Positions 54,674 to 55,385 of a stretch of 64,000 nucleotides of DNA are shown here, piece after piece; the stretch's first letter is position 1; the number at the start of each line of letters is the position of its first letter. Made by a program: the position numbers and the translations under genes. The DNA lies in the NCBI RefSeq assembly GCF_004010195.1, contig NC_057751.1, positions 16,979,585 to 17,043,584 on the forward strand, read 5' to 3'. This DNA comes from Chiloscyllium plagiosum (Eukaryota). A model generated the notes under the pieces. The model did not search any database, was not told the DNA's origin, and was given only the letters and a program-made list of their open reading frames with translations.

Positions 54674-55385
54674 TCTTAGCTGAGCAAAGAGAGAGAAAAG
54701 AAAGAAAGAGAGAGATATTAGCTGAGCAAACAGAGAATTTGAACTTGAGAAGTCCGCGAGTTAAAGAGGAGAAAGTGAGGTCTGCAGATGCTGGAGATCA
54801 AAGTTGAAACTTTATTGCTGGAACAGCACAGCAGGTCAGGCAGCATCCAGGAAACAGGAGATTCGACGTTTCGGGCACAGGCCCTTCCTGAAGAAGGGCC
54901 TGTGCCCGAAACGTCGAATCTCCTGTTCCCTGGATGCTGCCTGACCTGCTGTGCTGTTCCAGCAATAAAGTTTCAACCAAGTCCGCGATTTAGTCAGCAA
55001 AGTCAACAGAATGGAGATTAAAAGAGAAGGTTGCAATATATATATAAATATGTCAAAACGCTGCCGCATTTTGATGAGAAAGATGTTGAAGCCTTCTTTA
55101 TTTCATTGGAAAAATTGGCTCGGCAGGTGGAGTGGCCAGAGGATCTACGGGTAACGCTAGTTCAGACTAAACTGGTTGGCAGAGCTAGTGAGGTATTTGC
55201 TGCACTGTCAGATGAGGGGGTCAAGAGATTAGGAAGAGGTTAAACAGGCTATTTTGAGTGCTTATCAATTGGTACCTGAGACATATAGCCATCAGTTCAG
55301 AAACACAGAGGAGGGACTGGGTCAGACTTGGGTTGCGTTTGAAAGAATTAAACGTGGTCGTTTTGATTGATGGGTGCATGGTTTA
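54480..55385 (+). mobile_element. Gypsy/Ty3 (Gmr1-like) gag fragment, disrupted
   Basis: Coiled-coil E/R/K-rich segment, then LPHFDEKDVEAFFISLEKLARQVEWP..LVQTKLVGRASEVFAALS and VKQAILSAYQLVPETYSHQFRN. Confidence 0.8.
54764..54978. mobile_element. Young palindromic Penelope-derived mini-element (85-bp arms, 1 mismatch) with 14-bp TSD
   Basis: Arms 54803-54887 and 54893-54977. TSD AAGTCCGCGAGTTA (54750-54763) and AAGTCCGCGATTTA (54979-54992). Confidence 0.92.

What the first reader, a model, noticed from the sequence alone, without database searches (positions are those of the whole stretch)
54764..54978. Near-perfect 175-bp palindrome with a hammerhead ribozyme core at its apex and its own TSD
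Seen: 85-bp arms matching at 84/85 positions around a 5-nt loop, no ORF, inserted in a Gypsy gag with a 13/14 direct flank repeat. The apex and right arm read UUC-CUGAAGA-A-GGGC CUGU GCCC-GAAAC-GUC-GAA, which is a hammerhead core with stem II, a GUC cleavage triplet, palindromic ACGU stem III and a 3-bp stem I. Established: Penelope-like terminal repeats carry minimal, often dimer-acting hammerheads and form inverted termini. Inference: this is a young non-autonomous hairpin retroelement. The antisense arm would sequester the ribozyme once fully transcribed and could make dsRNA or small RNAs.
Basis: partly seen in the sequence, partly recalled or inferred. Interest (0 to 1): 0.72.

Follow-up and report, generated by a model that had tools for sequence, protein, structure and literature searches.

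The report
Fold-back stub of Penelope retroelement
The palindrome and its hammerhead-ribozyme motif are really there, but they are likely an ordinary, very short, mirror-image insertion of the tail end of a Penelope-type jumping gene, one of several such stubs in this window, and the ribozyme is predicted to be folded shut.

Summary
Observation confirmed: 84/85 arms, 5-nt loop, 13/14 flank repeat, textbook minimal-hammerhead motif (no Rfam hammerhead hit). Five more short fold-backs and a 900-bp relative lie in this window; the relative's long arm runs into endonuclease-like coding sequence. Six of these seven have 12-15-bp flank repeats. The repeat lays on 8,000-33,000 contigs in each of three public runs. 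Arms group by locus, not by side (11:0 against the copy with the same pivot), and pivots differ among copies, which favours rebuilding the hairpin at insertion over copying a hairpin as a unit. Loop polarity fits two cDNAs joined head to head over a 3-nt overlap (inferred). The ribozyme is predicted shut from the start (about 32 kcal/mol) on one strand, and its core is absent on the other. Inverted truncated copy, tail, target duplication and hammerhead are all published for these elements, and this scan noted the same thing in other windows of this genome. Ordinary; interest 0.2.

The parts
54750..54763 (+). Left copy of the 14-bp target-site duplication
   Evidence: 13/14 with 54979-54992
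54764..54766 (.). Three extra bases between the duplication and the usual family end; unexplained (untemplated or a longer end variant)
   Evidence: Family loose ends pile at 54766-54768, most at 54767, in all three contig runs (table 7)
54767..54802 (-). 36-nt 'tail' present on the long arm only
   Evidence: Present on the long arm and absent from the short arm in 4 of 4 aligned copies; 30-40-bp one-sided tail described in PMC8557442 and PMC11167929
54803..54887 (-). Long arm: inverted copy of the element's 3' end, stopping inside the hammerhead core (G8 onward)
   Evidence: no core motif on the - strand
54885..54887 (.). 3-nt overlap (TTC) that can be read as the end of either arm: the pivot
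   Evidence: Sequence; parent-type loose end behind 54887 in 56 contigs of run X1 shows the same three bases precede the core in unfolded copies
54888..54892 (+). Hairpin loop = first five bases of the hammerhead core, in sense on the tail-first strand
54885..54918 (+). Minimal type-I hammerhead motif; predicted cut after 54915; 3-bp stem I, 4-bp stem II, no intramolecular stem III
   Evidence: features as in PMC4209133; no Rfam match
54885..54978 (+). Short arm: sense copy of the 3' end, starting three bases before the core and ending without the tail
   Evidence: 62/79 identical to the terminal repeat of the longer relative at 18208-18297, 0 of 2000 shuffles as good
54979..54992 (+). Right copy of the target-site duplication
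55040..55388 (+). Host: decayed gag-like remnant (SCAN-related, likely Gmr1-like Gypsy), in two frames with stops; the insertion lies upstream in the same remnant
   Evidence: tblastn with P0001, 69% and 48%; SCAN in P0001; frames with stops
34601..34807 (+). Sibling B: older copy, same tail-first anatomy and same pivot, own flank repeat
   Evidence: 83% to the focal copy; arms 71/82; alignment
35833..36030 (+). Sibling C: same anatomy, short arm lacks about 15 nt at the pivot, 14-bp flank repeat (13/14)
22711..22903 (-). Sibling D: same anatomy, different pivot, 15-bp flank repeat (14/15)
63607..63828 (+). Sibling E: related family, fold-back with a different pivot, 12-bp flank repeat (11/12), core variant with U3/A8
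21525..21751 (-). Sibling H: related, more decayed fold-back with tail on the right; no flank repeat found
17398..18297 (.). Longer relative F: about 700-nt inverted arm that includes GIY-YIG-type endonuclease C-terminal coding sequence (17705-18028, -), joined head to head with a 200-nt sense terminal repeat carrying a hammerhead at 18211; 13-bp flank repeat (12/13)

Best explanation
The 215-bp insert is a palindrome with a one-sided 36-nt tail, a hammerhead motif and a 14-bp flank duplication, and it is likely a very short, dead insertion product of an endonuclease-bearing Penelope-like retrotransposon, probably built at the moment of insertion from two short cDNAs joined head to head. Shown: the anatomy, the sibling copies, the homology of the short arm to the terminal repeat of an endonuclease-coding relative. 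Inferred: the element's protein cut both target strands about 14 bp apart; each free 3' end primed reverse transcription on the uncut element RNA, one at the tail end and one about 36 nt further in (the two start sites measured in vitro for the anole element); both cDNAs stopped after about 95-120 nt at the hammerhead, one inside the core and one three bases in front of it; their 3' ends paired over TTC/GAA and were filled in, giving the mirror image. Predicted: any read-through transcript is a stable hairpin in which the ribozyme cannot fold, so the motif is a passenger here.
For: Anatomy equals the published insertion unit: inverted 5'-truncated copy plus 30-40-bp tail at one end (PMC8557442 passages; PMC3846280 passages, where the inverted repeat overlaps the direct one and is 37 bp shorter, with a 9-bp TSD); tail = distance between two RT start sites, both strands cut and extended, uncleaved RNA is the dominant substrate (PMC11167929 main text). 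Same anatomy at 5 further short loci and one long one; flank repeats of 12-15 bp at 6 of these 7. Short arm 62/79 identical to the repeat of relative F, whose long arm matches 45 proteins; 3 of the 16 scanned show sub-cut-off GIY-YIG hits (E 0.001-0.008) and P0012 shows the VIY...YIG motif. Arms group by locus: A vs B 11 columns to 0, A vs C 11 to 0, A vs D 9 to 1, although A and B share the pivot. Pivots of C, D, E and H differ from A/B; F pivots about 110 nt upstream of its core. Both arms keep bases upstream of the GUC site, so the template was not cut there. The loop is in sense on the tail-first strand, the opposite of what snap-back of a tail-first strand would leave (inference). Stem II probability 1e-12 or lower with the left arm, 0.99 without it; forcing the core open costs 31.7 kcal/mol. 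Stem variants among window copies keep pairing (stem I third pair U-A vs G-C in F; palindrome ACGU vs AGCU at 51547), so the motif is a real family feature.
Against: No coding parent of this exact family was found; the link to an endonuclease is through a relative at 78% identity, and the GIY-YIG hits are below Pfam's cut-off. A and B share the same pivot, and the loop bin has depth in all three contig runs (2.6%, 5.2% and 9.0% of the adjoining bin), so this pivot recurs; the tool warns that these depths are no copy numbers, and it listed no strand-change joint at the apex. Pivot variation within the young A-type subfamily was not measured. The arm-grouping test is uninformative among B, C and D (1:0, 0:1, 1:0 with 1, 0 and 2 crossed columns) and could be mimicked by conversion between arms. 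C's different pivot may be a later deletion. H has no flank repeat. The two-primer step itself is unproven in vivo.
Confidence: 0.8

Rival explanations
1. One reading: a non-autonomous hairpin retroelement that is transcribed and reinserted whole by a Penelope protein (the - strand RNA ends in the tail).
For: Pivot identical in A and B and present at other loci in three runs, two of other organisms (loop-bin depth); 6 short fold-backs of similar size (about 190-230 bp) in 64 kb; terminal repeats suffice in cis for mobilisation in trans (PMC3846280 passages); non-autonomous PLE derivatives exist (PMC8557442 passages; bioRxiv 10.64898/2026.07.22.740005).
Against: Arms group by locus 11:0 between A and B, so the hairpin arose at least twice or was homogenised; four other pivots in the window; no pol III A or B box by a crude pattern; the protein-binding 3' end would be buried in 85 bp of duplex; parent-type unfolded continuations exist.
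Confidence: 0.12
2. Same origin, different chemistry: the mirror arm comes from snap-back self-priming of one strand (cDNA or an antisense RNA) at the tiny TTC-N5-GAA inverted repeat, as proposed for rotifer elements.
For: Palindromes at inverted junctions were read as self-priming on an antisense template (PMC3846280 discussion passage); the parent carries a 3-bp inverted repeat exactly at the pivot.
Against: Snap-back of a tail-first antisense strand would leave the antisense loop on the tail-first strand; A and B have the sense loop there. Snap-back of the tail-less strand cannot copy a tail it lacks. A 3-bp stem is a weak primer. This argument is my inference from two loci.
Confidence: 0.2
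3. Artefact or later rearrangement: assembly fold-back, or a post-insertion inversion of a single stub.
For: Inverted structures trouble assemblies (PMC8557442 passage); no laid contig spans the whole stretch.
Against: One mismatch between arms, a one-sided tail, flank duplication, and the same design at older, decayed loci with their own duplications.
Confidence: 0.03

Closest known systems
Insertion unit of endonuclease-positive Penelope-like elements (Penelope/Poseidon, Neptune): inverted 5'-truncated pLTR, optional tail, TSD (Craig et al. 2021, PMC8557442; Arkhipova et al. 2013, PMC3846280; passages read)
   Same: Head-to-head inverted copy, 36-nt tail on one arm only, overlap at the junction, target-site duplication, hammerhead in the terminal repeat.
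   Different: Both arms are cut down to about 95-120 nt, so nothing but the ribozyme-to-tail module is left; TSDs here are 12-15 bp against 8-10 bp in the rotifer examples; no ORF in the unit.
PAc, Poseidon element of Anolis carolinensis (Frangieh et al. 2024, PMC11167929; main text read, supplements not)
   Same: Two reverse-transcription starts that define the tail; both strands cut and extended; uncleaved RNA used as template.
   Different: That work is in vitro and does not, in the text I read, explain where cDNAs stop or how arms join; the target here is not an obvious ATT site; the endonuclease of the relative here looks Neptune-like (cysteine motif before GIY-YIG in P0012; clade reading recalled, not tested).
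Minimal hammerheads (min-HHR) of metazoan PLEs (Cervera and De la Pena 2014, PMC4209133; results and discussion read)
   Same: Core, bulged base between 9 and 10.1, G10.1-C11.1 pair, no helix III with palindromic 15.2-16.2; that paper also reports mostly solo motifs from truncated PLEs and dual motifs 100-700 bp apart on opposite strands.
   Different: Stem II is 4 bp, not 7-8 as in the schistosome motifs; stem I is clipped to 3 bp by the junction; only one arm keeps the core.
Non-LTR retrozymes (Li, Clavereau, Pollet 2026, bioRxiv 10.64898/2026.07.22.740005; parts 1-2 of 5 and passages read, supplements closed)
   Same: Non-coding, PLE-terminal-repeat-derived, type-I hammerhead, found in a chondrichthyan.
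   Different: Retrozymes are head-to-tail tandem arrays with a ribozyme in each unit; this is a single head-to-head pair with one core.

Membership tests
EN+ Penelope-like element insertion unit | Inverted 5'-truncated copy joined head to head | tested here: met
EN+ Penelope-like element insertion unit | 30-40-bp tail at one end only | tested here: met
   36 nt, 54767-54802; 4 of 4 aligned copies; family end at 54766-54768
EN+ Penelope-like element insertion unit | Target-site duplication | tested here: met
   13/14; 6 of 7 loci have 12-15-bp repeats
EN+ Penelope-like element insertion unit | Hammerhead motif in the terminal repeat | tested here: met
EN+ Penelope-like element insertion unit | Terminal sequence belongs to an element coding RT plus GIY-YIG endonuclease | tested here: inconclusive
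   Shown only for the relative F (62/79 identity): endonuclease-like C-terminus, GIY-YIG hits below cut-off in 3 of 16 homologues; no parent ORF of this exact family, no genome held
EN+ Penelope-like element insertion unit | Clade assignment by RT phylogeny (Neptune vs Poseidon) | not tested
   No PLE RT sequence linked to this family in hand
Minimal hammerhead (min-HHR) | Core CUGANGA / GAAA / UH with G10.1-C11.1, bulge after A9, palindromic 15.2-16.2 | tested here: met
   Direct reading 54885-54918
Minimal hammerhead (min-HHR) | Self-cleavage (as dimer or protein-assisted) | not testable with these tools
   Double-hammerhead fold of two 34-nt units scores -10.9 against -13.8 for two monomers and -17.9 for the best dimer: not the favoured fold, but such energies ignore tertiary contacts
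Rfam hammerhead families | Covariance-model match | tested here: not met
   0 of 8 hits and 0 of 2 hits are hammerheads
Non-LTR retrozyme | Head-to-tail tandem units each with a complete hammerhead | tested here: not met
   Single inverted pair, one core
MITE / non-autonomous DNA transposon | Inverted repeats at both termini | tested here: not met
   36-39 nt at the left end have no partner
SINE | Internal pol III A and B boxes | tested here: not met
   None on either strand by a crude pattern
microRNA precursor | Rfam score at gathering threshold | tested here: not met
   Best 24.4 bits against 94

The most novel reading that the evidence does not exclude
A young subfamily of these hairpins has become a mobile unit of its own: a 215-bp non-coding palindrome that is transcribed from the tail-ending strand, recopied whole by the Penelope protein, and carries a permanently masked ribozyme, a MITE-like retroelement.
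Probability: 0.12. Interest if true: 0.55.

Novelty: new member of a known kind. Interest (0 to 1): 0.2.

Why it matters
As a single locus it matters little: it is one of a very abundant class of stubs. Its use is as a clean natural record of a step that is still unexplained, how Penelope elements form their inverted ends. A young copy shows both reverse-transcription starts (36 nt apart), both stops (within 8 nt of each other, at an uncut hammerhead), a 3-nt overlap and the loop polarity, which together make a sharp, testable prediction (two primed cDNAs, not snap-back) for the existing in vitro system. If the hairpin did move as a unit it would be a new kind of non-autonomous retroelement, but the evidence leans against that.

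Tried and rejected
No whole genome is held, so no copy count or junction census. Rfam found no hammerhead; the microRNA hits are far below threshold. Pattern scans of viral, metagenome and prokaryote collections gave 0, 3, 0, 6 and 3 loci; all 12 loci match only over 18-27 bases and are chance. No RNA holder was listed on record. The one raw RNA run laid 0 reads, which is no test of expression or small RNAs; run X11 is only guessed to be RNA. The read lay did not list fold-back joints at the apex, so it could not give the pivot distribution; its depths are not copy numbers. Word-index search and ESM Atlas found nothing for the 51-aa endonuclease fragment; the full HMMER search did; several of its hits are host proteins with such a fragment attached (7TM, EGF, Ig). 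Pfam gave nothing significant on window fragments. A sequence look-up and a near-place look-up among earlier findings returned nothing. Literature searches for a description of this repeat in sharks found none relevant; Repbase and Dfam could not be searched, and supplements of the cited papers were not seen, so the family may already be catalogued. Rejected: cleavage defining the pivot (both arms extend upstream of the GUC site); MITE; SINE; retrozyme array; a co-transcriptional window for cleavage on the + strand. A 26-bp inverted match at 53502/54066 first looked like LTR ends of the host but has no second copy and overlaps other repeats.

Full report
Observation. The sequence at 54764-54978 is as described. 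Arms 54803-54887 and 54893-54977 match at 84 of 85 positions around a 5-nt loop; the RNA folds at -185.3 kcal/mol, z = -25. The flank repeat matches 13 of 14; chance is 0.1% for shuffled flanks and 3.7% for real window pairs at like spacing. The hammerhead motif reads directly at 54885-54918, with the cut predicted after 54915. Rfam does not detect it. It fits the minimal hammerhead of Cervera and De la Pena (PMC4209133, results and discussion read) point by point: bulge after A9, G10.1-C11.1, no helix III, palindromic ACGU. Other motifs in the window keep pairing through changes, so the motif is a conserved family feature, not a chance reading of a palindrome.

The insert is not symmetric: 54767-54802 extends the left arm only. 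The same design (tail, long antisense arm, pivot at the hammerhead, short sense arm) recurs at 34601-34807, 35833-36030, 22711-22903, 63607-63828 and 21525-21751, and a 900-bp relative lies at 17398-18297. Six of these seven loci have their own 12-15-bp flank repeats; 21525-21751 has none. Hammerhead-type terminal pieces found with four window queries cover 1,991 of 64,000 bases, 3.1%. Laid on one arm plus tail, 27,193, 32,837 and 8,342 contigs fitted in three public runs of three coded organisms, with loose ends piling at 54766-54768; the fourth run, raw RNA, laid none and is no test. That the host is a shark is recalled from the look of the repeat and from earlier AI notes, not shown by a call; Penelope-like elements are reported as expanded in whale shark introns (bioRxiv 10.1101/443036, passages).

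Link to Penelope-like elements. The short arm is 62/79 identical to the terminal repeat of the long relative (0 of 2000 shuffles as good). That relative's inverted arm holds a 51-codon fragment that matches 45 proteins; of 16 scanned, 3 have GIY-YIG hits below the cut-off, and P0012 shows the GIY-YIG-type motif preceded by a cysteine cluster and aligns back to 17705-18028. A coding parent of the focal family itself was not found; no genome is held. The published insertion unit has an inverted 5'-truncated copy and a 30-40-bp tail at one end (PMC8557442, passages; PMC8969392, passages); in a rotifer the inverted repeat overlaps the direct one and is 37 bp shorter, within a TSD (PMC3846280, passages). 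For the anole element the tail is the distance between two internal reverse-transcription starts, both strands are cut and extended, and uncleaved RNA is the main template (PMC11167929, main text). The focal insert is this unit with both arms cut down to the ribozyme-to-tail module.

Unit or rebuilt each time? If a hairpin were copied whole, left arms should resemble left arms. Instead, informative columns group by locus: 11:0 for A vs B, 11:0 for A vs C, 9:1 for A vs D; B, C and D give too few columns to tell. A and B share the pivot yet are about 82% alike, so that pivot arose at least twice or the arms were homogenised. C, D, E and H have other pivots, though C may be a later deletion, and F pivots about 110 nt upstream of its core. 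Against this, the loop bin has depth in all three contig runs (2.6, 5.2 and 9.0% of the adjoining bin), so the pivot recurs; these depths are not copy numbers and the call listed no apex joints. Unit propagation inside the young subfamily is therefore not excluded (0.12).

Mechanism (inferred). A staggered cut 14 bp apart gives two 3' ends. One primes at the tail end and runs to G8 of the core; the other primes about 36 nt in and runs to three bases before the core. Unfolded copies have those three bases in front of the core (loose end behind 54887 in 56 contigs of X1; copy at 12300), so the two cDNA ends are complementary over TTC/GAA, anneal and are filled in. Loop polarity supports this over snap-back: self-priming of a tail-first antisense strand would leave the antisense loop on that strand, whereas A and B carry the sense loop there. 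Both arms reach upstream of the GUC site, so the template was not cut there. Why both stop at the ribozyme is not shown (RNA start just upstream, or a stall at the folded motif); other window copies run further upstream (12300, 51547, F).

Ribozyme at this locus (predicted). On the + strand, the direction of the host gag remnant, the antisense arm is made first: stem II probability is 1e-12 or lower at all five transcript ends tested from 54764, about 1e-6 with only five extra antisense bases, and 0.99 from 54885. Forcing the core open costs 31.7 kcal/mol; the - strand has no core; even isolated, the double-hammerhead fold is not the lowest-energy dimer. Published minimal hammerheads show no monomer and low dimer activity or need protein. 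The motif is thus likely a passenger here. dsRNA or small RNA output is untested.

Host. The insert lies in a decayed gag-like remnant with stops and a frame change; its one homologue found has a SCAN domain, linked to Gmr1-like Gypsy gag (PMC4592553, passages); the Atlas points to gag-type clusters.

Novelty. Each feature is in print for Penelope-like elements. Five searches found no paper on this repeat in sharks, but Repbase, Dfam and the papers' supplements were not seen. Earlier notes of this scan describe the same stubs in other windows of this genome; they are not independent support. Verdict: new member of a known kind, interest 0.2.

Noticed in passing
window 63607-63828: Related fold-back whose long arm carries a hammerhead core variant with U3 and A8, the covariation reported for schistosome Cercyon elements; pivot is a loop-less palindrome.
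   Followed up: partly
window 51539-51655, also 7914-8026, 38971-39021, 45701-45801, 53465-53526: A third hammerhead-bearing terminal family (5-bp stem II, palindrome AGCU, triplet CUA). At 53180-53526 and 38971-39329 it abuts endonuclease-like coding remnants in inverted arrangement; 53145-53513 and 38973-39340 are 96% alike.
   Followed up: partly
window 73-946 and 2600-2954 (- strand): Longer, fairly well preserved Penelope-type coding remnant with a clear GIY-YIG-type motif near the window start.
   Followed up: partly
window 54764-54766 and 54978: Three and one extra bases between the arms and the flank repeats; unexplained.
   Followed up: no
window 54804-54815: The focal copy's letters here are the majority among laid contigs in runs X1 and X11 but rare in X12: likely a lineage-restricted young subfamily.
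   Followed up: partly
window 54618-54715: AG microsatellite expanded inside the gag-like remnant, 35-50 bases upstream of the insertion site.
   Followed up: no
window 28252-28482 and 26823-27623: Two further inverted pairs (40 bp at 100%; 91 bp at 78%) that did not match the hammerhead families.
   Followed up: no
window 945-1686, 23615-24301, 60794-61316: A repeat with about 52-bp tandem units occurring at several places in both orientations.
   Followed up: no
proteins P0021, P0036, P0007, P0018: Predicted host-type proteins (7TM, EGF, Ig, DUF4518) came up in the search with the endonuclease fragment; P0021 ends in such a piece: gene-prediction fusions or exonised fragments.
   Followed up: no
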